A DNA stretch of 60,946 nt from sequence record NZ_CP048040.1. One strand, 5' to 3'. The position numbers and the translations under genes are program-made. Below, piece after piece: positions 3,566-46,103 of this stretch (its first letter is position 1; each line of letters begins with the position of its first letter). The notes under the pieces were generated by a model that was not told the origin of the DNA, searched no databases, and saw nothing but the letters and a program-made list of their open reading frames with translations. Source of the DNA: a plasmid.

Positions 3566-3901
3566 ATGAATAAAGAATTTGACTCCATATCCGAAATTCA
3601 AAAAGAGATTATCCGCTTAAAGCGCCACGCTGAAAATATCAAAAAAAAGACAAGAACCAAAGTAATTAACGAAATCATTCGTTCAATGGGTGAAAACGAC
3701 CTGAATCTTGAAGACATCGCACAGGTGTTTCACCGTAAACCTTCACAAAGAAAAATGCCGGCAAAAATTAAATACCAGCATCCCAATGGCGATACTTGGT
3801 CCGGTCGTGGACGACCTCCTGCATGGATAAAGCAGATAGAGTCTGAAGGTCATTCCCGTGAAGACTTTGCGGTCCGCAACGACTATGGGATTGAACCATG
3901 A
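3566..3901 (+). CDS. H-NS family nucleoid-associated protein
   Basis: C-terminal motif YQHPNGDTWSGRGRPPAWIK resembles H-NS DNA-binding core (TWTGRGRxPxW); AT-rich gene; plausible start MNKEFDSI. Confidence 0.6.
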   Translation: MNKEFDSISEIQKEIIRLKRHAENIKKKTRTKVINEIIRSMGENDLNLEDIAQVFHRKPSQRKMPAKIKYQHPNGDTWSGRGRPPAWIKQIESEGHSREDFAVRNDYGIEP

Positions 3902-7082: not shown

Positions 7083-7709
7083 ATGGCCAGCACCACGATT
7101 AACCGGAAAAATCTTGCCCGTCAGATCCTGGCAGGTCGCGCTATAGCAAAACTGACTAGAGTCGAACTAGCCAAGCTTGCGTCCATGGCGCATCCGACCG
7201 TCAAGCTCGCTGAAGATGGCGATTCGACAGTATCCGAAGAGGCGCTGGCTAAGATCTGCCGAGCTCTGGAAAACCTTGGCTTTGAGTTCCTGGATGGGAC
7301 CAACACACCTAGCATAGCGTTCCACGAACAGAACGAGATTGAAAGTTCCGGCATCACAGCCGATGCTTCCATGCCCGGCTGGGTTCGCCGCATCTATCCG
7401 CGTCGTCTGGACGCGCGTAGCCTCCTCAATGATCTGGAGGCATGCGGCGTCCAGGTCGATAACGTGAATGTCCTACTAGATCTGTGTGCGACGAGCGAAG
7501 GATCCTGGATGGATACGATCGGTGAGCTGGCTTCGAAAGGACGAAAGTATGGCATTCACTTCCAATGGCGTGATGTGGTGAACCCTGAAGGCGTACGTCA
7601 CGCTCTTCGGATCTATAGCTTGCCTCCTGCCACGCTAAACGCCTTGGTACAGAACATCACGAAGCACGGTGACGCGCTGGAGCTCAGTGGCAACGTGGTT
7701 AATCTATAG
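7083..7709 (+). CDS. HTH (Xre-like) DNA-binding protein with C-terminal domain of unknown function
   Basis: N-terminal LTRVELAKLASMAHPTVKLAEDG helix-turn-helix; SD AAGGAGA. Confidence 0.55.
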   Translation: MASTTINRKNLARQILAGRAIAKLTRVELAKLASMAHPTVKLAEDGDSTVSEEALAKICRALENLGFEFLDGTNTPSIAFHEQNEIESSGITADASMPGWVRRIYPRRLDARSLLNDLEACGVQVDNVNVLLDLCATSEGSWMDTIGELASKGRKYGIHFQWRDVVNPEGVRHALRIYSLPPATLNALVQNITKHGDALELSGNVVNL

Positions 7710-8567: not shown

Positions 8568-8870
8568 TTACTGAACTGATGTAGTAATAAAAACCATGCC
8601 AAAAGCAATTAAAAATAAACAAGAGCCCAAGGAAGCCCATAGTAAAGCAAAGAGCCAATACTTTGGCGGCTGCACATTTTTTAGTGCATCCGCAATGATT
8701 GAATCTGAAACTGTGGTATTACGATGACGCCAAAGCCATAAGGCTTTACTGCTTGAGTGCGCCGCAAAGTAGAAACTAATACTAGTCGCTGCCAGGAAAA
8801 AATAAGATAACCACCGAAAATCTTGTGCTATTGATTCTAACGTATCAATCATCATAGTCTCTGTTTTCAA
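8568..8870 (-). CDS. small membrane protein (100 aa)
   Basis: Three predicted TM helices. Confidence 0.4.
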   Translation of the reverse strand: MKTETMMIDTLESIAQDFRWLSYFFLAATSISFYFAAHSSSKALWLWRHRNTTVSDSIIADALKNVQPPKYWLFALLWASLGSCLFLIAFGMVFITTSVQ

Positions 8871-12693: not shown

Positions 12694-12954
12694 TCAGCCC
12701 TCGATGACGGCACCTTTTCGAGTCCCGGCCCGTGCTCGACTGACGGTATCAAAACCTTTCACTCCGCTGTCGTCCCCCGCGAAAGAGAATCCCTCTTTCA
12801 GCGTCACGATGATGGAGCTGCCGGCCTCGCGCTCGTCGTCCACAAAATCGATCCAAGGCAGGGCGCGAATAGCTTCTAGTGTTTTGCTCATGTGAGGGCC
12901 TTTGAAGAGCGTTAATCGAAGTAAATGGCTTTGGTGTGGGTTCGGCTCATTCAT
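12694..12954 (-). CDS. putative toxin partner of the DUF1778 antitoxin (86 aa, unassigned family)
   Basis: Start overlaps antitoxin stop by 8 nt; too short for a GNAT toxin. Confidence 0.35.
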   Translation of the reverse strand: MNEPNPHQSHLLRLTLFKGPHMSKTLEAIRALPWIDFVDDEREAGSSIIVTLKEGFSFAGDDSGVKGFDTVSRARAGTRKGAVIEG

Positions 12955-13243
12955 CCTGTTTTTCGATTTCTGCCAGGCTCAGCTCTTCGGCGTATGTGAG
13001 TAATGAGGGGTCAAACATCTTCATACGCCGCAACCGTTCATTTGGGTCGATATGCCAGAGGTCATTCATCTTTTCCCCAACCGTATGACCTTCGTGGAAC
13101 TGTACGATCTCAGCAGCCAAAGCAGCTGCAGTGGAGATGAAATTTGACATGTTCCTTCTTTGCGTACGAGCTGCAATTTCGATCATAAAAGCTTCACGGG
13201 GGGTCAGGCGAATCGTCTTCGTAATGCTGGCTATCTCGTTCAT
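12947..13243 (-). CDS. DUF1778 (TacA-like) ribbon-helix-helix antitoxin
   Basis: KTIRLTPREAFMIEIAARTQRRNMSNFISTAAALAAE matches DUF1778 pattern. Confidence 0.6.
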   Translation of the reverse strand: MNEIASITKTIRLTPREAFMIEIAARTQRRNMSNFISTAAALAAEIVQFHEGHTVGEKMNDLWHIDPNERLRRMKMFDPSLLTYAEELSLAEIEKQDE

Positions 13244-13314
13244 TTTGTCTATCCTCTCTTGTGGGGAAGTGTGTTTCCAATGCATGAATTCAAATAAATA
13301 AACAGCATCGAAAA

Positions 13315-13332
13315 ACGATATTATAGCATCAT
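13315..13332. promoter_or_regulatory. 18-bp near-palindromic operator ACGATATTATAGCATCAT (family ATGATACTATAGCATCAT; also 14042, 16893, 21064)
   Basis: Four related copies, each just upstream of a gene start. Confidence 0.5.
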
Positions 13333-13405
13333 TAAACGATGTATGAATGAGCGTGTTTTTTTGAGGTTATAAGAACCTCAAACATCACTTAGTTGGATAA
13401 CGACA

Positions 13406-13975
13406 TCAGACAATACGAAGTTGACCGGTAGATTCTGGGTAGGCCCTTAGCTCGAAATTCGTTTCTGCGGCCCATGCAGGAACCTGAATCACATCACGAT
13501 AATCTTCGTCAATCACGCAGCCCTGATTAGTAAGCAAAGCGTCTATTTCAGTACATATCGCTTCACGTAAATTCCAGCCAAAACCACTCACAATGATTGA
13601 GCTATACCCAGTGTTGCTGATGAACAGCGCATAAGGTTGAACCGCTTGAAGGGAGATTTGAAATAAGCAAGTTTGGTTAGGAACATTGGTGCTTGTGACG
13701 AGAGCTGTGATGCCTTGGTGCTGCAAGATGAAGCTGCCCTTTTGCCCCCACATAGGCATTCGCCCTTCTGGTGCCGAAAGCTTGTCACGGATCTGAGAGC
13801 CGGCGCTTTGTGCATGTACGTATGAGCCTTGGTTAGTCCCACCGTTTAAGCGCTCTACGATCTGTTGATACTTTGATGCCGCTGCATAAGCCTCGGCAGG
13901 TCTACTTTTAAGCAACCAGTGATGGTAAGCGGCAAGATGGGAGCGGGCTTCTTGCGTAGATAACCGGTAATCCAT
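13406..13975 (-). CDS. hypothetical protein (189 aa from MDYRLSTQEA)
   Basis: SD GGAGAA 6 nt before ATG at 13975; the longer 14035 start lacks an SD. Confidence 0.5.
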   Translation of the reverse strand: MDYRLSTQEARSHLAAYHHWLLKSRPAEAYAAASKYQQIVERLNGGTNQGSYVHAQSAGSQIRDKLSAPEGRMPMWGQKGSFILQHQGITALVTSTNVPNQTCLFQISLQAVQPYALFISNTGYSSIIVSGFGWNLREAICTEIDALLTNQGCVIDEDYRDVIQVPAWAAETNFELRAYPESTGQLRIV

Positions 13976-14041
13976 TGTGATTCTCCAGCGACGGCCGTAG
14001 TTTTGGGCTAGTGTTAAATCAATATTGATAAGCATTGAATA

Positions 14042-14059
14042 ATGATACTATGGGATCAT
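14042..14059. promoter_or_regulatory. operator-family copy ATGATACTATGGGATCAT
   Basis: Related to 21064 and 16893 copies; about 70 bp upstream of 13975 start. Confidence 0.4.
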
Positions 14060-14155
14060 GTAGTGATGCTTTGAATGGGCTTTAAATTGCCCTTAACAAG
14101 TCGGCGCCCATCAGTCACGGCGCATTACATCAACCGCTTATAAACACTGCGCAAA

Positions 14156-14593
14156 ATGATTATTCAAGATGCCTCTGCAACTTCAGACTGGACTAAAGAA
14201 ATGCTGGACGAACTTCATGTGAATCTGCAACCACTCGAAGACTGCGACTTTGAATGTGATGGCATGACATATGCGATTGCTACCGCGCTTGAGCGAGCGG
14301 GCATCACGCATCGGCGAATGGTCGGCCATGTGTATTGGAACCCTGGGCAAGATGTAATTGATCCGCACTGCTGGATAGAGTTGGCTAACGGCGTTGTTAT
14401 CGACTTTCGCCTTCGGATGTGGGTGGGAGATGATGATGCGGTGCCCCACGGCGTTTTCCGGGTTCAGCCAAACGATCTGCTCTATGTTGGCCAGGAACAG
14501 ACAACCGAACTGCCTTCGTGGGAAGTGCTTGAAATCATGACTGATGAACGTCTATCCCAACTGAGGCTTTACATGCCAGAGGCAATACGATGA
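14156..14593 (+). CDS. hypothetical protein (145 aa); possible Cys-His-Asp papain/transglutaminase-like triad
   Basis: PHCWIEL ... VPHGV ... PNDLL spacing; speculative. Confidence 0.5.
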   Translation: MIIQDASATSDWTKEMLDELHVNLQPLEDCDFECDGMTYAIATALERAGITHRRMVGHVYWNPGQDVIDPHCWIELANGVVIDFRLRMWVGDDDAVPHGVFRVQPNDLLYVGQEQTTELPSWEVLEIMTDERLSQLRLYMPEAIR

Positions 14594-15069
14594 ACCCTGG
14601 TAATACTTCACTGATAGTTCTTGCGACCACTGTGTTGGTCGTTCTTATGATGCCCATTGTGTTGGGCAGGGCGGACCGTTGGCGCCATGAGCGCAACGAA
14701 GGCGTAGGCAAGTGGTTCGTTAATGAAAAAATGCCGGCGGCGCTGCGTAACGCCACGCTTTACATGAACGAACGAACCTTGGCCATGCAAAACCCTGTGC
14801 GCCTGAACGCCAAAGTCGATCAGGTCTACCGCAAGCGTAACGGTTTGTTGGTATTGGTTGAAACAAAGACCCGCAATCAACATCGAGTGTATGACTCAGA
14901 CATTTATCAGCTCTCGCTCTACGCTCTGATTCTTTCGATTGTTCACAAGCAGAGGGTAAGTCATACAGCCTATGTTCGTAGCGTGATTGGAGATTCTGGT
15001 AACCGATCGGTGCGATACCACCTGGTGCGGCTCATTTCGCCAGCGACACTGTTGCGACAACTAGCCTAA
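14590..15069 (+). CDS. membrane-anchored PD-(D/E)xK nuclease, RecB/Cas4-like motifs
   Basis: N-terminal TM helix; VDQVYRKRNGLLVLVETKT (D...ExK) followed by YQLSLYAL (QxxxY); ATGA overlap with upstream ORF. Confidence 0.55.
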   Translation: MNPGNTSLIVLATTVLVVLMMPIVLGRADRWRHERNEGVGKWFVNEKMPAALRNATLYMNERTLAMQNPVRLNAKVDQVYRKRNGLLVLVETKTRNQHRVYDSDIYQLSLYALILSIVHKQRVSHTAYVRSVIGDSGNRSVRYHLVRLISPATLLRQLA

Positions 15070-15287
15070 AAAGGCTAAAGGCAAAAGAAATCCCCCCCAT
15101 GGTTGATTAGTCATGGAGGGATATTTCTTTCTGTGCCGTTCCAAGTTTGCTGGTGGCACCTTCAGTCACATTAGCTTCTCATTGCAGTATGAGTGCGCAT
15201 TTCCCGTTTGCTTTATGGATAGTAGGGCAATCAAACAGGTTGCCACCCTCGGCTTTGAGGCTTACTTTTTCATGCAACGTAGAAGGT

Positions 15288-16862
15288 TCATGTTTTGTTG
15301 GCCACCAGGATCACTACAACAACTGAAGTGCCTGGAAATTCGTTTTCGTAAGGGCCATGAAAAGTACAGTCAAGCTCTGGTAGGACTGCTCTGTTTTTTG
15401 CGCCAGCTGGAAGTATGGCGACGAGTCTGCCACCGGGCTTGAGCTGCTTGACCGCGGCGTCCAAATGATCTTGCCAGCGGCCCTGGTTAAAAGGTGGGTT
15501 CATCACGATGCGCTCAAAGCCACCAGGTTTGCCTTCCCAAGCGAGGAAATCTGCCTTGGACACGTGAAGGCCTTTGCTTTTGAGGATTTCGCAGTGTAGG
15601 CCGCTGATCTCTACGCAGGTCGTGCGATCAAGCGGCATCAACCGGGCTAGCCCGCCATGGCCAGCTTGTGGTTCTAAGCACTGATGCTCGGGGCCAATAT
15701 CAGCCAGTGCTACAGTAATCCGAGCCAGTTTCTCAGGCGTAGGGTAAAACTGGTGAGACTTTTCATCGGGGACGCACCCGGAAATGATGATTTCTTCTAC
15801 CACCTGTTCAATGGCGTAGTCGAACACCATGATGTTGATACCCGGCACCCTAACACCACCGATGCTCTCCAATATCTGTATTGCTTGATCCCGTGCGCCG
15901 GCATACAGGTTTGAGGAGTAAGGGACGTAGTAGCGATACCCTTCATCGTGGTCGTTGTTACGCTTTATGTCATTGAGTATGCCCAGAACAGCGTACGATA
16001 ATGGCCGCTGCATGACCCGTACTTCCTTGTGTTTCTTTTTGGGTGGAGCGCGAAACTCTGATGGAATTGCGGCCGGGTGCAAGTACGCCAGAATACGATT
16101 TAATTGCCAGGCGAGATTAGGATGGATTTCAAGGTGAGCCGTACCTTTCTTGTACAGACGCAGACGTAGCGCACCGCCGTCCACATCAAACCATTCGCCT
16201 GTACGCTTTTGTAAGGCTTGGATGAGGCGGTAGCTTGCATGCCAGTTCGGCTCATCGCGTCCCTGCAGCTTAGCAATAACTGCTCGCAGATCGTTGATGT
16301 ATCCGGTTCGGCTGGTGTCAGTCGATCCGTAGCTATTCACCATGTAATACAGAATCATCCGCTTACTAAAGCCTTGTGGAATGTTGGTGACATGGTTGCG
16401 GGAAAGTGCACGAAATATCCCATCGACACGTTCAGCGAAGAATTTAGAGCGGCTTGCCAGCAGGTCGCACGGGGTGTGGCGTACTGTTTGATCTTCAAAT
16501 TCGGGCACTTCGCGCTTGCGGATCTGTTCAAACCACTCTGAGCGGCGATTCTGAGGCATCAGATCCAGTATGTCGGTCATCTTGAGCAGCTTATTCCAGT
16601 AGTTCGCATTCAGCACGCTAACCGCTTTCTCTGTATCGAAGATGCGATCCAGATTGAAGGATTGTGGACGTTCTTCATGACAGCTGCCTTCCAAGAAATA
16701 CCCCACTGCACTGCGAAGCTTCGAGTCGCCAAAGATCCCACCTACTTGGTTGATCAACAGTCGCTGTTCGCGGTAATTCGCCAAAAGCGCATCGATCGTG
16801 TCTGTGCGCATGGGTGCAAAGAATTCCCCCATATCCATATCGGCACCGACGACAACGCTCAT
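15288..16862 (-). CDS. orphan gamma-class N6-adenine DNA methyltransferase fused to an N-terminal domain of unknown function (524 aa)
   Basis: C-terminal QFYPTP, CLEPQAGHGGLA (motif I), IVMNPPF (motif IV); SD AGGGGTGA; operator copy at 16893. Confidence 0.7.
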   Translation of the reverse strand: MSVVVGADMDMGEFFAPMRTDTIDALLANYREQRLLINQVGGIFGDSKLRSAVGYFLEGSCHEERPQSFNLDRIFDTEKAVSVLNANYWNKLLKMTDILDLMPQNRRSEWFEQIRKREVPEFEDQTVRHTPCDLLASRSKFFAERVDGIFRALSRNHVTNIPQGFSKRMILYYMVNSYGSTDTSRTGYINDLRAVIAKLQGRDEPNWHASYRLIQALQKRTGEWFDVDGGALRLRLYKKGTAHLEIHPNLAWQLNRILAYLHPAAIPSEFRAPPKKKHKEVRVMQRPLSYAVLGILNDIKRNNDHDEGYRYYVPYSSNLYAGARDQAIQILESIGGVRVPGINIMVFDYAIEQVVEEIIISGCVPDEKSHQFYPTPEKLARITVALADIGPEHQCLEPQAGHGGLARLMPLDRTTCVEISGLHCEILKSKGLHVSKADFLAWEGKPGGFERIVMNPPFNQGRWQDHLDAAVKQLKPGGRLVAILPAGAKNRAVLPELDCTFHGPYENEFPGTSVVVVILVANKT

Positions 16863-16892
16863 TTTTCACCCCTATTAAGAATACCAATATTC

Positions 16893-16908
16893 AATACTAT
16901 AGCATCAT
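16893..16908. promoter_or_regulatory. operator-family copy AATACTATAGCATCAT within a larger inverted repeat
   Basis: 30 bp upstream of the 524-aa methyltransferase start. Confidence 0.5.
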
Positions 16909-17108
16909 ATAATGATTCTATAGTTGAATCGGATATCAAAAGGGCAGGGAAAGAGTTTAAGCAGGCGGGGCAAATCCAAAGACTTAAGCGCCCGAAATGG
17001 GCCAATTCAGCAACCGGCTAAGGGGTAGTGCGCTCTTATCCTGTCGTCACTGCCAGGAACCGCCAAACGATTTGGATCACGCCTTGGACAGCTCACTTTT
17101 CTTGCAAT

Positions 17109-18092
17109 ATGGATCGAGCCATCGAAATGTCAGAACAGAACACCGAAAATCAATCGAAGCCGCCCTTAATCGAATTGAATGCTGCCGACATTCTGAAGGA
17201 GCATCGTAAAGAGCGTCGCTGGATATATGGGCTGCGTTTTCTTAGGACAATTGGATTTCTGATGGCAACGTCAGTGGCTTTGATCCTCGCGCTTCGTCCA
17301 AATGTCCTCCCGTGGGAACAACTGCGTTCTAACAGTCCTCATACCGCAGTCATCGATATTACCGGGGTGATCGAGAATAGCGCACAGGCAAGCCTGGATA
17401 CGCTCCAGCGTTCCATACAGTCGGCATTCGAGAACGAACTAAGCGAAGCAGTTGTGTTTCGCATCAATTCACCTGGAGGTAGTGCAGTACAAGCCAGCCT
17501 GCTGTACGAAGAAATCATGCTCAAGCGTAGTGAATACCCGAACAAACCGGTTTATGCCGTGATTGAAGACCTTGGAGTTTCAGGGGGTTACTACGTGGCG
17601 ATGGCTGCGGACAAAATCTATGCCAATCAAGCCAGTCTTGTGGGTTCTATTGGCGTAATCAGTTCAGGCTTTGGATTTACCGGGTTAATGGAAAAGTTGG
17701 GTGTGGAGCGTCGCACCATGACTTCTGGCCACAACAAGGCCCTGATGGATCCATTTGCTCCACTCACGCTTGAGCACCGTGAGTTTTGGCAAACCATCCT
17801 GACCGAAACTCATAATCAATTCATTAGCTTGGTGCAGGAGTCGCGTGGTGAAAGACTCAAGGTAGCCGGCAATACGGATCTGTTCAGTGGATTGGTTTGG
17901 AACGGCGCACGCGCGCTGGAGCTGGGGTTGATTGACGGTCTTCGCAGTGTGTCGTCAGTTGCGCTTGATGTTGTGGGTCATCCCAAGATCGTTGATTACA
18001 CACCCAGGAGAGATATGTTAAGTCGCTTCGCGGGACGAATGTCTGTTGAGATTCTTGAATTGCTCAGTCGCAACACAACTAATTTTTTCTGA
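17109..18092 (+). CDS. S49-family (SppA-like) signal peptide peptidase
   Basis: TM segment then NSPGGS...SGGYYVAMAADKIYA...GSIGV motifs typical of SppA/ClpP-class. Confidence 0.65.
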   Translation: MDRAIEMSEQNTENQSKPPLIELNAADILKEHRKERRWIYGLRFLRTIGFLMATSVALILALRPNVLPWEQLRSNSPHTAVIDITGVIENSAQASLDTLQRSIQSAFENELSEAVVFRINSPGGSAVQASLLYEEIMLKRSEYPNKPVYAVIEDLGVSGGYYVAMAADKIYANQASLVGSIGVISSGFGFTGLMEKLGVERRTMTSGHNKALMDPFAPLTLEHREFWQTILTETHNQFISLVQESRGERLKVAGNTDLFSGLVWNGARALELGLIDGLRSVSSVALDVVGHPKIVDYTPRRDMLSRFAGRMSVEILELLSRNTTNFF

Positions 18093-18133
18093 ACACACAC
18101 CTTGATTATCTTTGACGAACAACAGAGGACACC

Positions 18134-19000
18134 ATGACTGACAAGACACACCAAAGCAACAATCGACAGACCACTCTTCTATCCATTGGCGCGATCTTAA
18201 TTATCGTGACGGTGGTAGGTGGAGTTTTCTTGTGGAAGTCGGTGCAAAGTACCATGCAAGCCGTGCAGAACATTGGCTTACAGGTAAGCAGCTTGCAAAG
18301 TCAGGATAGAACTCCTACATCGGATCAACTCAAAAAGGCAGTTGCTCTGGCCATTACAGACATTGCCGCAGAAGAACAGGCTAAGTTAGTCACGGCTAAG
18401 CTGGATGCTTACAAGAATGCGGCGGAAACCGTACCTGAGGGTAAGCATGTTTATGGCAGCTTGAATGCCCGCTTCACGATGGTCGAATTTTCGGATTTGG
18501 AATGCCCATACTGCAAGCGCTTTCACAACACACCCAAGAGTCTTGTGGATGATAGCAGTGGCAATGTGAACTGGCAGTGGATGCATCTTCCGCTGGGCTT
18601 TCACAATCCAGGCGCACAGTTAGGTGCCGAAGCGGCCGAATGTGCCTCAGACTTGGGCGGCAATCGAAGCTTTTGGGCCTACCTTGAAGAATATTTCGAG
18701 CATACACGCGGCAATGGGCAAGGGGTGAGTGATTTGACGCAACTGGCGGTGAATCTTGGCATAAATGCTACCGAGTTTCGTCAGTGCATGACCGAAGGAC
18801 GTTACCGCGACAAAGTGCAGGAGCAAGCTGCAAAGGCAGCATCGCTGGGCATCAATGGCACTCCCGCAACGTTCCTGGTGGACAACTTGACTGGTAACAG
18901 CCAACTGCTCAGCGGAGCTCAACCGGCAGAGGCCTTCGTCGGTGCTATGCGAAAAATGATAACCGAGGCTCAAGAAGCAGCAACTGCAAAGCAAGGCTAA
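18134..19000 (+). CDS. DsbA-family thiol:disulfide oxidoreductase with N-terminal membrane anchor
   Basis: CPYC active site in thioredoxin context FSDLECPYCKRF; SD AGAGGA. Confidence 0.65.
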   Translation: MTDKTHQSNNRQTTLLSIGAILIIVTVVGGVFLWKSVQSTMQAVQNIGLQVSSLQSQDRTPTSDQLKKAVALAITDIAAEEQAKLVTAKLDAYKNAAETVPEGKHVYGSLNARFTMVEFSDLECPYCKRFHNTPKSLVDDSSGNVNWQWMHLPLGFHNPGAQLGAEAAECASDLGGNRSFWAYLEEYFEHTRGNGQGVSDLTQLAVNLGINATEFRQCMTEGRYRDKVQEQAAKAASLGINGTPATFLVDNLTGNSQLLSGAQPAEAFVGAMRKMITEAQEAATAKQG

Positions 19001-19072
19001 GGCGAACAGGTTGGGTGAAGAGATGGCGGCAACATAATCTGCCGCCATTATCTTGATTGATACAGAGCGCAC

Positions 19073-19717
19073 ATGACACACCAAGAATTGACATTAATCG
19101 CCTTAAAGTGGCTCAAACGTGCACAAAGCGCAGGTGGCCATGGATGCCAAGTGGCATTGAGTGAGTGCAAGACAGGATGGCGTGGGGAAATACCGGATGC
19201 CATAGGGTTCAGAGCAACAGGCCATGCACCCACTGACGGGAGTGTTCTTGTTGAAGTAAAAGTGTCGCGCTCGGACTTTCTTGCCGATGCAAAAAAGACT
19301 CACCGTCAAGGTGGTGGGGTAGGGCGCTGGCGTTACTACCTGGCTCCAGCTGGGCTCATAAGGACTGATGAGCTACCGACTAAATGGGGGCTGCTTGAAG
19401 TCAATAAGCGCGGTCATGTTAAGGCGTTAGCAGGTCCTGCGTTATGTGCATTGGGCAACAACCAGGGGTTTAGAAGACTGCTAGTTGCTTTTGAGCATGA
19501 GCAAGACCTGATTGGAGAAAACTTTCTTCTTGTCAAAGCACTTGCCAATACCGGTGATCCGCAAAAGGTGCTGGATATGCTTAGAGAGGCTAACAATCGG
19601 AATGCGCTTTTAGCTAAGCGTAATGATGATTTAAGGGCGCGCATGGAACGCATGGTGATCAACTATTACCGTGGGGAAACCCAAAATGAAGGCGATGAGG
19701 AATTTTGCAAAAAGTGA
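19073..19717 (+). CDS. MmcB-like PD-(D/E)xK family protein with C-terminal coiled-coil extension
   Basis: IPDAIGF ... VEVKVSRSDF ... YYLAPAGLI pattern; tail LREANNRNALLAKRNDDLRARMERM. Confidence 0.5.
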   Translation: MTHQELTLIALKWLKRAQSAGGHGCQVALSECKTGWRGEIPDAIGFRATGHAPTDGSVLVEVKVSRSDFLADAKKTHRQGGGVGRWRYYLAPAGLIRTDELPTKWGLLEVNKRGHVKALAGPALCALGNNQGFRRLLVAFEHEQDLIGENFLLVKALANTGDPQKVLDMLREANNRNALLAKRNDDLRARMERMVINYYRGETQNEGDEEFCKK

Positions 19718-19721
19718 GCCC

Positions 19722-19937
19722 ATGTGGGAGGTGTATGAGGATGGCTCGATCGTCAATACTGAAACGCACGTACGGTTTGTCCACAGACGAGGTTTATGGA
19801 AAGTGGATTCAGCTTCTGTAACGATGGCACGGATAGCAGGTATTAAATTTGAGCGACGTAAGCTGTACGTGCTTGAGTTGGAATGCAATCTGTGGGCGCA
19901 TGAGCGCAGGTTCATAGCTTTAAAACACGTAGCATAA
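19722..19937 (+). CDS. small hypothetical protein (72 aa from MWEV)
   Basis: ORF immediately after previous stop. Confidence 0.3.
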   Translation: MWEVYEDGSIVNTETHVRFVHRRGLWKVDSASVTMARIAGIKFERRKLYVLELECNLWAHERRFIALKHVA

Positions 19938-20136
19938 AAAAACTAAAGAAACACCAAAATATCCTGTGACCTTGTTTTCAGTTGCTCGGTTTGGAGACCA
20001 ATTAACCCTTGTACAGCACAAGACACCCGGAGTGAAAGGAGTGCGATTAATGAAAGATTGAGGGCGGGATATATTCAAAATATCAAGCCTGTCAGCCCAA
20101 TGACCGACGAGCAATGATGACCGAAGGAAAGAAAAT

Positions 20137-20403
20137 ATGATGGCTACAGATAACCCAACTGAAGAATGCCAAGATTTATTTGACTATTACATTAGTGTTG
20201 CTGTTGACGGCCTGGATAAGCTTCAGATGTGTGATGTTGACCGTGTGCTGGAGCAAGCTCAGAACGTAGATGAATTATGTTTATTGAGTGAGTACATGTT
20301 GGCCAGGCGCAAGGACTTTGATGTTGCTGAGATCATTGAGCTGGAAGCGCAGATCATGGCAGAGCGTGGTTGGATGTCGAAGCCTTGCCGTCGCCAACAA
20401 TAA
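20137..20403 (+). CDS. small acidic hypothetical protein (88 aa)
   Basis: SD AAGGAAAG; 18 bp before next gene. Confidence 0.45.
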   Translation: MMATDNPTEECQDLFDYYISVAVDGLDKLQMCDVDRVLEQAQNVDELCLLSEYMLARRKDFDVAEIIELEAQIMAERGWMSKPCRRQQ

Positions 20404-20421
20404 TGTGGGAACGGGGAAAAT

Positions 20422-20940
20422 ATGGGCAACGTGTACTTTTTGAGTCAGCAGGAAGCAGAGCGTCTAGCGCCTGTGAGCAGTGCAGCTATGATATCCATCA
20501 CTGATCCTGATAAACCACTTGCCCAGCTTGGCCAGTGGGACTATCTTTTGCGCGAATCATTTTACGATGGTGGCTATAGTCGTGAAACGATCCATACTAT
20601 GAAAGAATCCTTTCCGTTTAAATATGCCTCTTACATCGATTCAGAACAGGCGCAAAGGCTTGTTGCCTTTCTCGATTGTTTGATTCAGCAGGGTGTAAGG
20701 GAGATCTATGTTCACTGCTATTACGGCAGATCACGCAGCGGTGCAGTTGCGATGTTCCTACGGGACAAATACGGATTTACCCCGAACAAGGAAATCGATC
20801 GTCCAAACCGTACAGTGTACAAAATGCTTCAAAACCCGCAACGTTATGATGAGTTGATAGCCTGCTACGCCAAGAAAGCAACGATTGTGCCAGGAGCCAC
20901 TTCCTTTATAGGTAAATTGAGGGCATTCCTTGGTTTGTAG
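20422..20940 (+). CDS. CX5R cysteine phosphatase-like protein (dual-specificity/PTP-like P-loop)
   Basis: VHCYYGRSRSGAVAMFL fits VHCxxGxxRSG DSP signature. Confidence 0.5.
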   Translation: MGNVYFLSQQEAERLAPVSSAAMISITDPDKPLAQLGQWDYLLRESFYDGGYSRETIHTMKESFPFKYASYIDSEQAQRLVAFLDCLIQQGVREIYVHCYYGRSRSGAVAMFLRDKYGFTPNKEIDRPNRTVYKMLQNPQRYDELIACYAKKATIVPGATSFIGKLRAFLGL

Positions 20941-21019
20941 TGGCTTAGCAGCAGCGGCTACACGATGTAGATAACCGGCTTCAAAAGGCCGGTTTTTTAC
21001 GTTTGTAAGGAAAAAAAAG

Positions 21020-21033
21020 TTTCGCATGCGAAA
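21020..21033. promoter_or_regulatory. palindrome TTTCGCATGCGAAA (copy 2), upstream of parA
   Basis: Identical 14-mer; 30 bp before the 18-bp operator copy at 21064. Confidence 0.6.
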
Positions 21034-21063
21034 TTTTCCAATAGCACACAGGCGCATCAATAA

Positions 21064-21081
21064 ATGATACTATAGCATCAC
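21064..21081. promoter_or_regulatory. 18-bp operator ATGATACTATAGCATCAC upstream of parA
   Basis: Family member; parA promoter carries both operator types. Confidence 0.5.
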
Positions 21082-21127
21082 ATTTTATTCTTGTAACGAT
21101 GCCATTTTGACTCTCAGAGAGCGTGGA

Positions 21128-21916
21128 ATGCCCGTGAAAGTAATCAGTTTCGCCAACCAAAAGGGCGGGGTGGGTAAAAGCACCCTTTGCCTGCAAATGG
21201 CCTTTTATCTTGTCGAGGCCGGTATGCGTGTCTTGGTAGTTGACATGGATACTCAAGGCAATACGTCGTCACGATTGGCCCCAAAGATTGAACTGGACAA
21301 TGGTTTAGAGCGAAGGGAGTATTATGGCACTCCAGCCTCAGCCTTGTTCTCGGCCAAGCCTATAAATATTAAGCCAATGCAATGTCCTGCAGGTATGGAT
21401 CTAATCCACACGCCGCGCAACGACCCTGATCTTGCCGAAATAGAGCAGCGTGATCTCAATATCGCGACACGACCGAGGCAGCATTTGGAACCTTTCATCC
21501 AAGGCTACGACTATGTGCTGATCGACTGCCCCCCGGCTCTTGGGAGAAAGTTAGCCGCAGCACTAGTAGCCTCAACGCACGTGGTCTGCCCTGTGAAGCT
21601 CTCTGGTTTTGCTGTCGATGGGGTCGAAGACATACTGACAACAATAATTGGGATTCAAGGCACTGAAAACCCACAGCTGCAATTGGTCGGCCTTGTAATA
21701 AATGATATGGACCGATCTGTTAGTACCGAACGAGCCATGCAAGAGTTACATGAAAGCGTGCCTGACATGCTGCTCACGAACAGGATCATGCACAGGCCAC
21801 CTTTGGACTCAGCCACTACGGCGGGTATTCCTGTGTGGAAGCTGCCTTATGCTCATGTGGCAGCAAAGGAAGTCAAAGATGTGTTGTCGGAAATAATTGA
21901 AAGGGTAGACAGATAA
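21128..21916 (+). CDS. parA: ParA-family partition ATPase
   Basis: KVISFANQKGGVGKST deviant Walker A; VVDMDTQGN. Confidence 0.8.
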   Translation: MPVKVISFANQKGGVGKSTLCLQMAFYLVEAGMRVLVVDMDTQGNTSSRLAPKIELDNGLERREYYGTPASALFSAKPINIKPMQCPAGMDLIHTPRNDPDLAEIEQRDLNIATRPRQHLEPFIQGYDYVLIDCPPALGRKLAAALVASTHVVCPVKLSGFAVDGVEDILTTIIGIQGTENPQLQLVGLVINDMDRSVSTERAMQELHESVPDMLLTNRIMHRPPLDSATTAGIPVWKLPYAHVAAKEVKDVLSEIIERVDR

Positions 21917-23070
21917 TGGGCAAGTTCGGTTCACTCCAAACTTTGACGCAACTGACAAAGATGGCTGCGGGCGGGGATAACATGATCCTAACCGTGCAAC
22001 CAGACGAGTTGGTGAGCGAAGAACAGGTACGCAAGATTTTTCGTAACTTGGATGCCCTGGCTGATTCGCTAGAAACCGAAGGCCAGCAGTCCCCTATTAT
22101 TGTCAGCCCCCGTAACAAGGATGGCAAATACGTCATTCAGAAGGGGGAACGTCGCTGGCGAGCAGCAAAGCTGCGCAACTTGGCAGTCAAGATCTATGTG
22201 AACAACACAGATCAGAGTGACATGGATGCGAAGGCTGGCCAATTAATAGAGAATATTCAGCGCGACAATCTGACGGCAATGGAAATTGCGGACGCATTGG
22301 GTGAGATGTCCGATTCAGGTATGACTGGAGTTCAGATTGCAAAGCGCATCAGTATGAGCACAAAATTCGTGTCAGTACATTTATCTTTGCGAAACTTATC
22401 TGAGCCGGTGCGAGCGCTAGTAGCTGATAATGTTACTGGTGACGCAGATTTGCTCTATACACTTGAGCAAATTGCCAAGATAGACGCTAAGCGCTGTATG
22501 GCCATGTGTGAACAGGCACGTGCAAACGGGATAACGCGTAAGCATGCAGTTCAAGTCTACAAAGTTTTGAAGGAACAAAAGGCGGCAGAAAAAGCGAGGG
22601 CTCAAGCCGAAACGCAAGCTCCAAAAATCGCTAGCCAGGATCGGGAATCAATAGTACCTACTACGCTACAAGCTACGGGGGGAGAATCTGCGGCAAGTGA
22701 AGAGACTCAGGTAGCCGCGACCAGAAATGCTGGGCCGGTAGTTGCCACTCCTTTGGAACCGCAGACAGGTTCAAAAACCAATCGGCCGAAAGATAAGAGT
22801 TTGTCTGATAACCCATTCCTGACAGACGAAGAAAAAGCGCAAGCCACTTCTCAATCAAGTAGTACCGAAGCGGTTAATCCTTTCATTCAGTCGGAATCTG
22901 GAGTGGTTGTTACTGTAAGACTATCTGATGACGTTGGCACAACTGGGCGCCTGTTGCTGGATCGGGAGCCTCAAGAAGAAACACTAGCGTGGGTGCGGAC
23001 TGCAGACGGTGATGAACTCGAAGTCGAAGTCTCTGCCCTGTCCATCACCAGTATAAAAATAAACGCATGA
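21916..23070 (+). CDS. parB: ParB/KorB-like DNA-binding protein
   Basis: ParB N-domain GQQSPIIV...QKGERRWRAAKL, HTH LTAMEIADAL; start overlaps parA stop. Confidence 0.75.
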   Translation: MGKFGSLQTLTQLTKMAAGGDNMILTVQPDELVSEEQVRKIFRNLDALADSLETEGQQSPIIVSPRNKDGKYVIQKGERRWRAAKLRNLAVKIYVNNTDQSDMDAKAGQLIENIQRDNLTAMEIADALGEMSDSGMTGVQIAKRISMSTKFVSVHLSLRNLSEPVRALVADNVTGDADLLYTLEQIAKIDAKRCMAMCEQARANGITRKHAVQVYKVLKEQKAAEKARAQAETQAPKIASQDRESIVPTTLQATGGESAASEETQVAATRNAGPVVATPLEPQTGSKTNRPKDKSLSDNPFLTDEEKAQATSQSSSTEAVNPFIQSESGVVVTVRLSDDVGTTGRLLLDREPQEETLAWVRTADGDELEVEVSALSITSIKINA

Positions 23071-23543
23071 AGCAGACACAAGAGCTAACTGATTTTTCCT
23101 CGCAGCTGTCAACCGACTCGGTGCGTAAGCTGTCGATCCTTTGCATGATAGCAAAGCACCCGATGATTTCATCGACCAGCTTGTCGCGTTACACTAAGAT
23201 CCCGGATCCGTCTCTTAAGCGGCATATCCAACAGCTTCGTCGTGGCTATTTTGTTGACATTATTTACGTACGTATGAGCCAAACTGAAGCGGGCATTCAT
23301 GGTGGCTATGAGATCCGTGACTGGGGCATCATCGATAAAGATGAATTGTTGCGTCGTTACGGGCATATGGTTCCAGATAAAATTGAGGATCCACCCGCGA
23401 TTTGGCCATCCGCACCAGCCAAATCCAAGCGAAAATCTGCACTGAAGTCGATCGCCACGGATAAGGTAACGAAGACTGTTCCGGCAGCAAAAAAAGCTGC
23501 AGCCAAACGAGCAGCTGCCAAAAAGGCTATCCCAGTCAAATAG
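23067..23543 (+). CDS. winged-helix DNA-binding protein with lysine/alanine-rich histone-H1-like tail
   Basis: wHTH-like N-terminus; tail PAAKKAAAKRAAAKKAIPVK; ATGA overlap with parB. Confidence 0.55.
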   Translation: MKQTQELTDFSSQLSTDSVRKLSILCMIAKHPMISSTSLSRYTKIPDPSLKRHIQQLRRGYFVDIIYVRMSQTEAGIHGGYEIRDWGIIDKDELLRRYGHMVPDKIEDPPAIWPSAPAKSKRKSALKSIATDKVTKTVPAAKKAAAKRAAAKKAIPVK

Positions 23544-36296: not shown

Positions 36297-36401
36297 TGGG
36301 CTACGTAAAGAGGGTGCCTAGAGCAGGGCGTAATCGATGGGCACTAAGTTTGATAAGCATCCTGGGTTGCCTTTCAATGAGTACGGCCGCATTTGCAGAA
36401 G
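36297..36401 (+). pseudogene. 5' fragment of a secreted-protein gene truncated by IS26
   Basis: AGGAGA SD, MGYVKRVPRAGRNRWALSLISILGCLSMSTAAFA signal peptide, reading frame runs into IS26. Confidence 0.45.
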
Positions 36402-37216
36402 GGCACTGTTGCAAATAGTCGGTGGTGATAAACTTATCATCCCCTTTTGCTGATGGAGCTGCACATGAACCCATTCAAAGGCCGGCATTTTCAGCGTGAC
36501 ATCATTCTGTGGGCCGTACGCTGGTACTGCAAATACGGCATCAGTTACCGTGAGCTGCAGGAGATGCTGGCTGAACGCGGAGTGAATGTCGATCACTCCA
36601 CGATTTACCGCTGGGTTCAGCGTTATGCGCCTGAAATGGAAAAACGGCTGCGCTGGTACTGGCGTAACCCTTCCGATCTTTGCCCGTGGCACATGGATGA
36701 AACCTACGTGAAGGTCAATGGCCGCTGGGCGTATCTGCTACCAGGCCGTCGACAGCCGGGGCCGCACTGTCGATTTTATCTCTCCTCCCGTCGTAACAGC
36801 AAAGCTGCATACCGGTTTCTGGTAAAATCCTCAACAACGTGAAAGTGGCAGATCCGCGATTCATCAACACAGCGGGTAAAGCGCCCGCCTGGTCGCGCGC
36901 GCGCTGCTCAAACGCGAAGGCCGGTGCCCGTCTGACGTTGAACACCGGCAGATTAAGTACCGGAACAACGTGATTGAATGCGATCATGGCAAACTGAAAC
37001 GGATAATCGGCGCCACGCTGGGATTTAAATCCATGAAGACGGCTTACGCCACCATCAAAGGTATTGAGGTGATGCGTGCACTACGCAAAGGCCAGGCCTC
37101 AGCATTTTATTATGGTGATCCCCTGGGCGAAATGCGCCTGGTAAGCAGAGTTTTTGAAATGTAAGGCCTTTGAATAAGACAAAAGGCTGCCTCATCGCTA
37201 ACTTTGCAACAGTGCC
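36402..37216 (+). mobile_element. IS26 (IS6 family), copy 1, divergent/frameshifted
   Basis: Termini GGCACTGTTGCAAA ... TTTGCAACAGTGCC; internal Tnp26 homologue broken into ORFs 36447-36842 and 36970-37164. Confidence 0.85.
36465..37164 (+). pseudogene. tnpA: IS26 transposase, frameshifted
   Basis: MNPFKGRHFQRDIILWAVRWYCKYG... then frame breaks after WAYL. Confidence 0.7.
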
Positions 37217-45285: not shown

Positions 45286-46103
45286 GGCACTGTTGCAAAT
45301 AGTCGGTGGTGATAAACTTATCATCCCCTTTTGCTGATGGAGCTGCACATGAACCCATTCAAAGGCCGGCATTTTCAGCGTGACATCATTCTGTGGGCCG
45401 TACGCTGGTACTGCAAATACGGCATCAGTTACCGTGAGCTGCAGGAGATGCTGGCTGAACGCGGAGTGAATGTCGATCACTCCACGATTTACCGCTGGGT
45501 TCAGCGTTATGCGCCTGAAATGGAAAAACGGCTGCGCTGGTACTGGCGTAACCCTTCCGATCTTTGCCCGTGGCACATGGATGAAACCTACGTGAAGGTC
45601 AATGGCCGCTGGGCGTATCTGTACCAGGCCGTCGACAGCCGGGGCCGCACTGTCGATTACATCTCTCCTCCCGTCGTAACAGCAAAGCTGCGCGCACGGT
45701 TTCTGGGTAAAATCCTCAACAACGTGAAGAAGTGGCAGATCCGCGATTCATCAGCACGGATAAAGCGCCCGCCTATGGTGCGCGCTTGCTCTGCTCAAAC
45801 GCGAGGCCGGTGCCCGTCCTGACGTTGAACACCGACAGATTAAGTACCGGAACAACGTGATTGAATGCGATCATGGCAAACTGAAACGGATAATCGGCGC
45901 CACGCTGGGATTTAAATCCATGAAGACGGCTTACGCCACCATCAAAGGTATTGAGGTGATGCGTGCACTACGCAAAGGCCAGGCCTCAGCATTTTATTAT
46001 GGTGATCCCCTGGGCGAAATGCGCCTGGTAAGCAGAGTTTTTGAAATGTAAGGCCTTTGAATAAGACAAAAGGCTGCCTCATCGCTAACTTTGCAACAGT
46101 GCC
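45286..46103 (+). mobile_element. IS26, copy 2, same orientation as copy 1, divergent/frameshifted
   Basis: Termini GGCACTGTTGCAAA ... TTTGCAACAGTGCC; Tnp26 homologue in ORFs 45331-45822 and 45857-46051. Confidence 0.85.
45348..46051 (+). pseudogene. tnpA: IS26 transposase, frameshifted at positions different from copy 1
   Basis: MNPFKGRHFQRD...WAYLYQAVDSRGRTVD then frame break. Confidence 0.7.

What the first reader, a model, noticed from the sequence alone, without database searches (positions are those of the whole stretch)
13315..21081. Second operator family: 18-bp near-palindrome ATGATACTATAGCATCAT at four promoters, including parA alongside the 14-bp palindrome
Related copies lie at 13315 (DUF1778 TA), 14042 (unknown 189-aa gene), 16893 (524-aa methyltransferase fusion) and 21064 (parA). 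Each is 30-90 bp upstream of a start codon. The parA promoter carries both this element and the TTTCGCATGCGAAA palindrome, like IncP korA-type promoters that have both OA and OB sites. Candidate binders are the wHTH/H1-tail protein that is the third gene of the par operon (23067-23543) and the Xre-HTH protein (7083-7709).
Basis: seen in the sequence. Interest (0 to 1): 0.6.

Follow-up and report, generated by a model that had tools for sequence, protein, structure and literature searches.

The report
Repressor operators on IncC-like plasmid promoters
The repeated 18-base motif is real, but it is the junction between neighbouring 17-base palindromes that sit inside the core promoters of several backbone operons; these look like operators for a plasmid repressor, and the same sites occur in the clinically important IncC resistance plasmids.

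Summary
Four loci (13315, 14042, 16891, 21064) match the 18-mer with 1-3 mismatches, against 0.01 expected by chance.

The unit is mis-parsed. The conserved element is a 17-bp palindrome, GCATCR-N5(AT-rich)-YGATGC ("type A"), at 13305, 13326, 14032, 14053, 16902 and 21054.

Type A sites are kept at orthologous promoters in a relative with 92% ParA identity. They occur as single sites between -35 and -10 in distant relatives and in true IncC plasmids: 8 hits against 0.4 expected, including the parA promoter.

The best reading is an operator set for a dimeric plasmid repressor that blocks RNA polymerase at the establishment, maintenance and par operons. It works beside the separate ParB/parS palindrome TTTCGCATGCGAAA.

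The binder is unproven. The winged-HTH third par gene (IncC "053" family) is the best candidate, about 45%. The Xre protein is unsupported, and the "DUF1778 TA" label is weak.

This is a new member of the kor-type plasmid regulon class. Interest is moderate: it offers a testable site for the unidentified extra regulator of the IncC parA promoter.

The parts
13305..13342 (.). S1: two tandem type A operators, GCATCGAAAAACGATAT (13305-13321) and GCATCATTAAACGATGT (13326-13342), 21 bp centre to centre. On the minus strand TGcTATAAT (-10 at 13325-13320) lies between them, with -35 TTCATA at 13347-13342.
   Evidence: orthologous tandem pair in L003 at 1638/1659
14032..14069 (.). S2: two tandem type A operators, GCATTGAATAATGATAC (14032-14048) and GGATCATGTAGTGATGC (14053-14069), 21-bp period. 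They lie in the divergent region between the 189-aa KlcB_N-like gene (-) and the 145-aa/PD-(D/E)XK operon (+). -10-like CATAGT (-) and TGaTACTAT (+) sit at the junction.
   Evidence: L003 site at 2369
16891..16929 (.). S3: one full type A operator, GCATCATATAATGATTC (16902-16918), flanked on both sides by TATAG plus degenerate outer arms, which gives a ~40-bp palindrome. Back-to-back -10 boxes: TATAGT on the minus strand (16901-16896) for the DUF4942-methyltransferase gene, and TATAGT on the plus strand (16919-16924) towards the S49/DsbA operon.
   Evidence: the site is the conserved island in a five-lineage alignment of this intergenic region
21054..21081 (.). S4 (parA promoter): type A operator GCATCAATAAATGATAC (21054-21070) plus an extra half-site GCATCA (21075-21080). 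Extended -10 TGaTACTAT (-10 at 21068-21073) reads towards parA.
   Evidence: identical arrangement in L003
21020..21033 (.). TTTCGCATGCGAAA palindrome at the parA promoter. It is the counterpart of the IncC parS core TTTCACATGTGAAA that ParB binds, and it is not part of the type A family.
12947..13243 (-). 98-aa protein downstream of S1. The N-terminus looks like a ribbon-helix-helix (weak TacA1/NikA-like hits). There is no toxin partner. It is a secondary candidate binder specific to this lineage.
13406..13975 (-). 189-aa gene downstream of S2 on the minus strand. Its L003 orthologue carries a KlcB_N Pfam hit.
14156..15069 (+). 145-aa gene and PD-(D/E)XK nuclease gene downstream of S2 on the plus strand. 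Both are conserved in all related lineages and in IncC, where a type A site at 3749 precedes the homologous operon.
15288..16862 (-). 524-aa DUF4942 plus SAM-methyltransferase gene downstream of S3 on the minus strand.
17109..19000 (+). S49 peptidase and DsbA genes, on the plus-strand side of S3.
21128..23070 (+). parA (type Ib ATPase) and parB (KorB-domain ParB), transcribed from the S4 promoter.
23067..23543 (+). Third par gene: 158-aa winged-HTH protein of the IncC '053' / HTH_43 (DUF2131) family, with a Lys/Ala-rich C-terminal tail. It is the best candidate for the type A binder and would be autoregulated through S4.

Best explanation
The motif copies belong to a family of operators for a plasmid-encoded dimeric repressor, built into the core promoters of backbone operons of an IncA/C-like (MOBH) plasmid.

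The binding unit is the 17-bp palindrome GCATCR-N5(AT-rich)-YGATGC, often extended to TAYAG...CTRTA. It fills the 17-bp spacer between -35 and -10, and its right arm supplies the TG of an extended -10 (TGcTATAAT).

In this lineage a second copy follows 21 bp (two helical turns) downstream and covers the transcription start. A bound repressor would exclude RNA polymerase.

The controlled genes are an RHH-like gene, a KlcB-like gene, a nuclease operon, a DUF4942 methyltransferase, the S49/DsbA operon and parA-parB-053. A burst of expression would follow entry into a repressor-free cell, then be shut down.

At the parA promoter the element acts next to a separate ParB/parS site.

Shown: the sites, their symmetry, their overlap with promoter-like hexamers, and their conservation. 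Inferred: repression itself, cooperativity, and the binder. The most likely binder (about 45%) is the winged-HTH product of the third par gene (053/HTH_43 family), which would then autoregulate.
For: The sites are real and non-random. With the type A matrix the window has 7 hits at >=11 bits against 1.4 in shuffles, and 6 of the 7 are the intergenic sites.

Type A, not the 18-mer, is the unit.
- Type A sites with no neighbouring copy occur in the parent plasmid pGZAF1_VIM at 58924 and 119299 and in every distant lineage.
- No 18-mer occurs without flanking arms that complete type A sites.
- Information content peaks on ATCA/TGAT (1.3-2.0 bits). The N5 centre is fixed in length, AT-rich and variable in sequence.

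Conservation.
- The relative with 92% ParA identity (L003-L010) keeps sites at all four orthologous promoters and has a fifth before a DUF2786 gene.
- Relatives with 61-66% ParA identity (L013, L016, L026, L027, L038, L040) keep single sites at the parA, DUF4942/S49 and DUF2786 promoters.
- In a five-lineage alignment of the DUF4942/S49 intergenic region, the site is the conserved island.
- A matrix built only from the window lineage finds 8 sites at >=14 bits in IncC pCRE7-NDM, against 0.4 in shuffles. Seven of them, including the parA promoter, are intergenic with the form TTTACA-G[TC]ATCA-N5-TGATGC-TATAAA.

Promoter overlap: TTCATA-16-TATAAT with an upstream TG at S1, and TGnTATAGT elements at S3 and S4. 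In IncC the site lies exactly between the -35 and -10 that Kiss and co-workers predicted for PparA. They showed PparA is strong on its own and is repressed 8-11-fold by the plasmid (PMC10954446).

Binder.
- ParB and the 053 homologue are the only predicted DNA-binding proteins shared between the window and IncC.
- 053 is encoded in an operon that carries the operator in almost every lineage.
- Its recognition helix [ST]-[IL]-[KR]-R is conserved, like the ATCA core.
- The model is a confident winged HTH (pLDDT 87.8) resembling the Rrf2, MarR and ArsR dimeric repressors.
- The one lineage with a K-to-H change in that helix (P0124, L024/L011) has degenerate arms.
Against: There is no experimental evidence of binding or repression for this plasmid.

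Against 053 as the binder:
- In IncC, ParA, ParB and 053 supplied in trans do not give full repression of PparA. The authors infer an additional factor encoded outside the par operon.
- Comamonas and Diaphorobacter plasmids carry parA-parB-053 homologues with a similar recognition helix. They have no type A site at the parA promoter, nor in the 50 kb and 12.8 kb examined respectively.
- All lineages examined have 053, so co-occurrence cannot discriminate between candidates.

The promoter hexamers are consensus matches only, and transcription starts are not mapped. At S2 and S3 it is not settled which of the divergent genes is controlled.
Confidence: 0.7

Rival explanations
1. The type A operator is bound by a plasmid regulator encoded outside the par operon: the unidentified extra PparA repressor inferred in IncC. 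The 053-family protein does something else.
For: In IncC, a mini-replicon or pBAD supply of ParA-ParB-053 represses PparA less than the whole plasmid does. The reporter fragment (173 bp) includes the type A site. Comamonas and Diaphorobacter plasmids keep 053 but lack type A sites.
Against: No other predicted DNA-binding protein is shared between the 61-kb window and IncC. Such a factor would have to be an unrecognised fold, or be missing from this deletion derivative. The extra IncC repression could instead come from the H-NS-like Acr2 protein acting on an AT-rich promoter; that is my inference.
Confidence: 0.3
2. One reading: the 18-bp near-palindrome ATGATAC-TATA-GCATCAT is itself the dimer binding site.
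For: It is nearly symmetric. Its TATA centre is almost invariant in the window lineage, and it is found at all four loci.
Against: It never occurs without the outer arms that complete type A sites. It is absent from the single-site lineages and from IncC. The same plasmid family has type A sites with no 18-mer (pGZAF1 58924). The invariant TATA is explained by the -10 box.
Confidence: 0.12
3. In this lineage the RHH-like 98-aa protein downstream of S1 is the repressor or a co-repressor. It would autoregulate at S1, the best tandem site, perhaps recognising arrays of half-sites spaced about 10.5 bp apart, as omega or Arc-type proteins do.
For: The N-terminus resembles TacA/NikA RHH domains. The protein is found only in the lineages with clear tandem arrays: window, L003 and L011. 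S1 is the strongest site.
Against: There is no homologue in any PLSDB plasmid other than its own, including IncC, which has the same operator. Pfam hits are below threshold. The structure prediction was uninformative. A 21-bp tandem pair also exists in a Marinomonas contig.
Confidence: 0.1
4. There is no dedicated regulator. The repeats are copies of one strong promoter module (-35, spacer, extended -10) that has spread among backbone operons.
For: Every site overlaps promoter-like hexamers. In IncC the flanks are -35 TTTACA and -10 TATAAA.
Against: The most conserved positions are the symmetric ATCA/TGAT inside the spacer, which sigma-70 does not read. They are more conserved than the hexamers. 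The site is used in either orientation relative to the gene (S4 against S1 and S3). IncC PparA is repressed by its plasmid.
Confidence: 0.07
5. The Xre-type HTH protein (7083-7709) is the binder.
For: It has a predicted HTH (HTH_31, E=2.6e-4, below the Pfam cutoff).
Against: There is no homologue in IncC. There is no type A or 18-mer site near its own promoter. It lies in a mosaic segment that is only 94% identical to pGZAF1_VIM, against 99.3% for the backbone.
Confidence: 0.03

Closest known systems
IncP-1 (RK2) KorA-OA / KorB-OB global regulon
   Same: A small palindromic operator overlaps the core promoter of several backbone operons, including the operon that encodes ParA, ParB and a small HTH protein. 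At the par promoter a second palindrome for the KorB-type ParB sits next to it. The ParB here has a KorB domain.
   Different: The operator sequence (GCATCA-N5-TGATGC) is unrelated to OA (GTTTAGCTAAAC, from my own knowledge). The candidate repressor is an HTH_43/DUF2131 winged HTH, not a KorA homologue. It is the third gene of the operon, not the first. Only one of the four promoters in the window has both site types. No cooperation with ParB has been shown.
IncC/IncA ParB-parS system (Kiss lab, NAR 2024, PMC10954446)
   Same: The plasmid backbone is of the same family: ParA 62%, ParB 49% and 053 35% identical. The window's TTTCGCATGCGAAA corresponds to the IncC parS core TTTCACATGTGAAA, which has 13 copies in pCRE7-NDM. 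PparA carries parS in both.
   Different: The type A element is a different palindrome and is not mentioned in that paper. In IncC it lies between -35 and -10, upstream of parS. In the window parS lies upstream of it.
AcaCD (FlhDC-like) boxes of IncA/C plasmids
   Same: Repeated regulatory sites on the same backbone family, upstream of many operons.
   Different: The AcaCD box is TGCCCAAAWAGGGCA-like and is an activator site upstream of -35 (PMC4207636 Table 1). Type A differs in sequence and sits in the spacer. Two weak IncC hits (GCATCAAAAAATGCAAC at 76193 and 123590) look like AcaCD boxes, and I excluded them.
Rrf2 / MarR / ArsR winged-HTH repressors
   Same: The model of the third par protein has this fold class. 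These proteins bind 17-29-bp palindromes that overlap promoters, as dimers.
   Different: This is only a fold-level resemblance (Foldseek E about 1e-3 to 1e-2, TM 0.5-0.6). No ligand or metal-binding features are evident. The nearest solved relative (3ke2) has no known function.

Membership tests
IncP-1 KorA/OA operator system | Operator matches the OA consensus GTTTAGCTAAAC | tested here: not met
   The site consensus is TAYAGCATCA-N5-TGATGCTRTA. The OA sequence is from my own knowledge.
IncP-1 KorA/OA operator system | Repressor is a KorA homologue | tested here: not met
   Pfam gives only a weak HTH_43 hit for the third par gene. Family members carry PF09904. The best PDB hit by sequence is 3ke2, DUF2131.
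IncP-1 KorA/OA operator system | Operator overlaps the -10/core promoter of several backbone operons, including the par/central control operon | tested here: met
   (promoter hexamers are consensus matches only)
IncP-1 KorA/OA operator system | Cooperation with KorB bound at a nearby OB site | not testable with these tools
   The two site types are adjacent only at PparA in the window (35 bp centre to centre). In IncC they are within about 50 bp of each other at three promoters.
ParB-parS centromere/operator (IncC type) | 14-bp core TTTCRCATGYGAAA with AAAC/GTTT flanks, bound by the KorB-like ParB | tested here: not met
   Type A has different arms and an N5 spacer. The parS-type palindrome is a separate family with 5 copies in the window.
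Type II toxin-antitoxin autoregulatory operator (DUF1778/TacA-GNAT) | Antitoxin passes the DUF1778/TacA model and is paired with a GNAT toxin | tested here: not met
   TacA1 scores 19.3-19.5 bits against a cutoff of 21. The downstream 86-aa ORF has no Pfam hit.
Type II toxin-antitoxin autoregulatory operator (DUF1778/TacA-GNAT) | Operator confined to the TA promoter | tested here: not met
   The same operator occurs at four unrelated promoters and in plasmids that lack the gene.
AcaCD/SetCD (FlhDC-type) activator box | TGCCCAAAWAGGGCA-like box upstream of -35 | tested here: not met
   One search compared
MerR-type spacer operator | Palindrome inside an over-long (19-20 bp) -35/-10 spacer | tested here: not met
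   The spacer is 16-17 bp at S1 and in the IncC promoters. The MerR rule is from my own knowledge.
HTH_43 / DUF2131 winged-HTH family (candidate binder) | Sequence and fold match to PF09904 / PDB 3ke2 | tested here: met
   A profile of 36 homologues hits 3ke2 at E=2.8e-5. The model's best Foldseek hit is 3ke2. Most homologues carry PF09904. The window protein alone is below the Pfam cutoff.
Sigma-70 extended -10 promoter | TGnTATAAT-like element at a suitable distance from the start codon | tested here: met
   TGcTATAAT (S1), TGcTATAGT (S3) and TGaTACTAT (S2, S4). Transcription starts are not mapped.

The most novel reading that the evidence does not exclude
The 17-bp palindrome is the operator of the uncharacterised 053/HTH_43 (DUF2131) protein family. 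That protein would be the KorA-like partner of the KorB-type ParB across IncA/C-type multidrug-resistance plasmids and their relatives, holding a set of establishment and maintenance promoters shut. This would explain why 053 is indispensable yet not needed for partition. It would also give the cis-site through which the unidentified extra regulation of IncC PparA, the process disturbed by the SGI1 Sci protein, operates.
Probability: 0.3. Interest if true: 0.65.

Novelty: new member of a known kind. Interest (0 to 1): 0.5.

Why it matters
IncC/IncA plasmids and their relatives carry NDM, VIM and CMY genes, and their maintenance control is only partly understood. The published work identifies parS/ParB and states that PparA needs another, unknown regulator and that the role of 053 is unknown (PMC10954446).

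A conserved palindrome sits exactly between -35 and -10 of PparA and of six other IncC backbone promoters. In this Alcaligenes VIM-plasmid lineage it is present in a tandem form. This gives a concrete cis-element to test, a defined candidate protein, and a predicted regulon: methyltransferase, KlcB-like protein, nuclease, S49/DsbA and par. That regulon is likely to matter for plasmid establishment after transfer and for plasmid stability.

Tried and rejected
- A ParA-based scan of genome contigs found no relative.
- The tandem-signature pattern GCATCRN5YGATRYTATAGCATCR gave only chance hits in genome contigs (2). In metagenome contigs it gave 5 hits, of which only MTEV01012188 is a near-identical relative.
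- Full-text searches for motif strings and for 053 literature found nothing relevant beyond PMC10954446. Lang 2012 is not held.
- JQ010984 (R55) is not in the plasmid collection, so pCRE7-NDM was used as the IncC reference.
- The RHH-like 98-aa protein has no PLSDB homologue outside its own plasmid. Its single-sequence structure model was useless (pLDDT 45), and its PDB sequence hits are not significant.
- NCBIfam and PHROGs gave nothing for the small conserved ORFs.
- Rfam shows no known RNA family in 12800-21300.
- I considered and rejected the AcaCD box, a MerR-type activator site (spacer length), a second centromere for ParMR (parMR is deleted from the window, and the sites are scattered at promoters), and single-strand (Frpo-like) promoters (a 12-bp stem cannot rebuild -35/-10).
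- An apparent link between tandem operators and the Lys/Ala tail of the 053 homologue is weakened by a 21-bp tandem pair in a Marinomonas contig whose homologue lacks the tail.
- Phylogenetic profiling cannot separate candidates, because every lineage examined has 053.


Full report
**1. Observation.**
The pattern ATGATACTATAGCATCAT with up to 3 mismatches hits four loci: 13315, 14042, 16891 and 21064. Dinucleotide-preserving shuffles give 0.01 expected hits. No copy is identical to the quoted consensus; the copies have 2, 2, 3 and 1 mismatches. The third copy aligns best at 16891, not 16893.

A matrix built from the four copies scores them 23-24 bits. Nothing outside these loci scores above 12.8. 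That scan also shows a degenerate inverted copy at 16912-16929.

All copies are intergenic and lie 29-72 bp upstream of start codons. TTTCGCATGCGAAA occurs five times exactly, once at 21020-21033 in front of parA. The observation therefore stands.

**2. Where the window comes from.**
The backbone part is 99.3-99.6% identical to Alcaligenes faecalis plasmid pGZAF1_VIM. The window looks like a circular ~61-kb derivative bounded by IS26 that has lost most transfer genes.

The backbone is of the IncA/C type, with RepA, MobI(A/C), a MobH relaxase, AcaC/FlhC and ParM in the parent. ParA is 62% identical to IncC ParA, ParB 49%, and the third par gene 35% identical to IncC "053".

**3. Anatomy: the unit is a different palindrome.**
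With flanks aligned, every copy has further arms at a spacing of about 10.5 bp. Re-parsing gives a 17-bp palindrome, GCATCR-N5-YGATGC, which I call type A. The copies are:
- 13305-13321 and 13326-13342 (site S1)
- 14032-14048 and 14053-14069 (S2)
- 16902-16918 (S3)
- 21054-21070, plus a lone half-site at 21075-21080 (S4)

.

At S1 and S2 two copies lie exactly 21 bp apart.

Three facts show that type A is the unit:
- Type A sites occur with no neighbouring copy. Examples are pGZAF1_VIM 58924 (TATAGCATCATTAAACGATGCTATA) and 119299, and every distant lineage.
- The 18-mer never occurs without outer arms that complete type A sites.
- In a symmetrised alignment of 29 sites from six lineages, information peaks on ATCA/TGAT (1.3-2.0 bits). 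The N5 is fixed in length, AT-rich and variable in sequence.

**4. Relation to promoters.**
On the strand of the downstream gene, the right arm plus the junction reads TGcTATAAT at S1 and TGcTATAGT at S3. These are extended -10 elements. At S1 the scan finds TTCATA-16-TATAAT with an upstream TG.

The upstream type A copy therefore fills the -35/-10 spacer, and the downstream copy covers the start site.

At S4 the gene lies in the other direction, and the other strand offers TGaTACTAT. S3 has back-to-back -10 boxes on either side of a single operator, one towards the DUF4942 methyltransferase and one towards S49/DsbA.

These are consensus matches. No transcription starts are known. No Rfam family matches the region.

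**5. Conservation.**
Contigs with 92% ParA identity (L003-L010) are syntenic. They keep the element at all four orthologous promoters, in more symmetric form, and have a fifth before a DUF2786 gene. The window has replaced that gene and lacks the site.

The lineage with 80% ParA identity (L011/L024) has a degenerate tandem pair before the orthologue of the 98-aa gene.

Lineages with 61-66% ParA identity (L013, L016, L026, L027, L038, L040) have single type A sites directly followed by TATAAT-like boxes. These sites are at the parA, DUF4942/S49 and DUF2786 promoters. In a five-lineage alignment of the DUF4942/S49 intergenic region, the site is the conserved island.

A matrix made only from window-lineage sites finds 8 hits at >=14 bits in the IncC plasmid pCRE7-NDM, against 0.4 in shuffles. 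Seven hits are intergenic and have the form TTTACA-G[TC]ATCA-N5-TGATGC-TATAAA. One of these is the parA promoter (TTGCAG-TATCATTTTATGATCGC-TACAAT) and another is the promoter of the operon homologous to the window's 145-aa/nuclease/S49/DsbA genes. The eighth hit (93161) appears to lie inside a gene and is probably chance.

Comamonas and Diaphorobacter plasmids of the same clade lack the element in the stretches examined. pAQU2-type plasmids keep one good site and a half-site at PparA.

**6. What it is not.**
*Not parS.* The IncC 14-bp core TTTCACATGTGAAA has 13 copies with AAAC/GTTT flanks. It is the ParB-bound parS of Kiss and co-workers. The window's TTTCGCATGCGAAA is its counterpart.

*Not an AcaCD box.* That box is TGCCCAAAWAGGGCA (PMC4207636 Table 1). 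Two weak IncC hits (GCATCAAAAAATGCAAC) look like AcaCD boxes, and I dropped them.

*Not MerR-like.* The spacer is 16-17 bp, not 19-20.

*Not a toxin-antitoxin operator.* The 98-aa protein is below the TacA1 threshold and has no GNAT partner. The same operator serves unrelated promoters.

**7. Who binds.**
ParB and the 053 homologue are the only predicted DNA-binding proteins shared by the window and IncC.

*For the 053 homologue:*
- The family (36 sequences) has a conserved recognition helix, [ST]-[IL]-[KR]-R-x-[IL].
- The AlphaFold model is a confident winged HTH (pLDDT 87.8). Its best structural match is 3ke2 (DUF2131, function unknown), followed by Rrf2, MarR, ArsR and AspA proteins. These bind palindromes as dimers.
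- The gene sits in an operon that carries the operator, which fits autoregulation.
- The one lineage with a Lys-to-His change in the recognition helix has degenerate arms.
- 053 is reported as indispensable for IncC maintenance yet dispensable for partition. That would fit a kor-like repressor; this last step is my inference.

*Against the 053 homologue:*
- In IncC, ParA-ParB-053 supplied in trans repress PparA less than the whole plasmid does. The authors postulate a further factor encoded elsewhere.
- The Comamonas and Diaphorobacter plasmids keep 053 without type A sites.

*Other candidates:*
- The 98-aa RHH-like protein is restricted to the window, L003 and L011 lineages and is absent from all other PLSDB plasmids. 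It cannot be the family-wide binder, but it could be a co-factor in this lineage.
- The Xre protein has no IncC homologue, no site at its own promoter, and lies in a mosaic segment.

My estimates are: 053 family about 45%, an unidentified plasmid factor about 30%, the RHH-like protein about 10%, the Xre protein about 3%, and no dedicated regulator about 7%.

**8. Mechanism.**
Steps not cited are inferred. A dimer binds each 17-bp palindrome with its recognition helices on the ATCA/TGAT arms, 11 bp apart. In the spacer position it clashes with RNA polymerase. In this lineage a second dimer 21 bp away, on the same face of the helix, covers the start site and probably binds cooperatively. The -10 box at the junction explains the invariant TATA.

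The regulon covers the RHH-like gene, a KlcB-like gene, a PD-(D/E)XK nuclease operon, a DUF4942 methyltransferase, S49/DsbA, and parA-parB-053. These functions are outside the AcaCD transfer regulon. Expression should peak just after entry into a new cell and then be shut down, with the par operon under negative feedback. At PparA the adjacent parS allows joint control with ParB, as shown for ParB in IncC.

**9. Comparison and novelty.**
The system works like the IncP-1 KorA/OA plus KorB/OB arrangement. It is not a member of that family, because both the operator and the candidate repressor are unrelated to KorA/OA.

I found no description of this palindrome in the accessible literature. The IncC paper describes only parS and explicitly leaves an extra PparA regulator and the role of 053 open.

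I therefore rate it a new member of a known kind, a plasmid global-repressor regulon. Interest is moderate: the biology is conventional, but the element extends to IncC plasmids and makes a stated open question directly testable.

Noticed in passing
window 1-60946 (joins at 36401-37216 and 45284-46103): The window looks like a complete circular ~61-kb derivative of a pGZAF1_VIM-like plasmid. Its two ends are contiguous in the mer region of the parent. Two IS26 copies bound a segment that replaces most tra genes. The parMR region is deleted up to mobI.
   Followed up: partly
window 6026, 21020, 31255, 51626, 53179: Five exact copies of TTTCGCATGCGAAA; pGZAF1_VIM has eight. This is the counterpart of the IncC parS core TTTCACATGTGAAA (13 copies in pCRE7-NDM), and it is identical to the palindrome in Comamonas plasmids of the same clade.
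   Followed up: partly
L018-L020 (IncC pCRE7-NDM) 3749, 15022, 17836, 19285, 25223, 29333, 32722, 32929: True IncC plasmids carry the same operator as a 29-bp palindrome, TTTACAGYATCA-N5-TGATGCTGTAAA, spanning -35 to -10. Three of the sites are within about 50 bp of a parS copy (14978/15022, 29333/29358, 32722/32773).
   Followed up: partly
L021-L023 (pGZAF1_VIM) 58924, 119299, 106428: The parent plasmid has further type A sites that the window has lost. One is downstream of traN, before a conserved 286-aa gene. One is next to the SLT-acaDC region. There is a weaker one before a 247-aa gene.
   Followed up: no
window 23382-23543: The 053 homologue here carries a C-terminal Lys/Ala-rich tail (AAKKAAAKRAAAKKA) like a histone H1 tail. 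The tail is absent from the 85-108-aa homologues in IncC and most relatives, and is shared only with the L003 and L024 lineages.
   Followed up: partly
window 19073-19717 and 19717-20137: Relatives have a DUF2786/DUF7168 gene here, preceded by a type A site. The window instead has an unrelated 214-aa gene (phrog_631) and no site. Homology to L003 breaks just after the upstream 82-aa gene remnant.
   Followed up: partly
window 8831-8848: An 18-bp palindrome, TTGATTCTAACGTATCAA, has arms resembling the operator arms. It lies inside or at the start of a small minus-strand ORF, has a different spacing, and is not conserved as a site. It is probably unrelated.
   Followed up: no
window 20554-20570: A type A-like match, GAATCATTTTACGATGG (15.4 bits), lies inside the 172-aa phosphatase-like ORF. 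It is likely chance.
   Followed up: no
L037 (Comamonas plasmid NZ_CP129673) 38570-38640: An intergenic region has GGTATCA and TGATACC half-sites 46 bp apart, enclosing two AATCGAT palindromes. Promoters in this plasmid share CTTGCATTTTT but lack the full type A palindrome, even though a 053 homologue is present.
   Followed up: no
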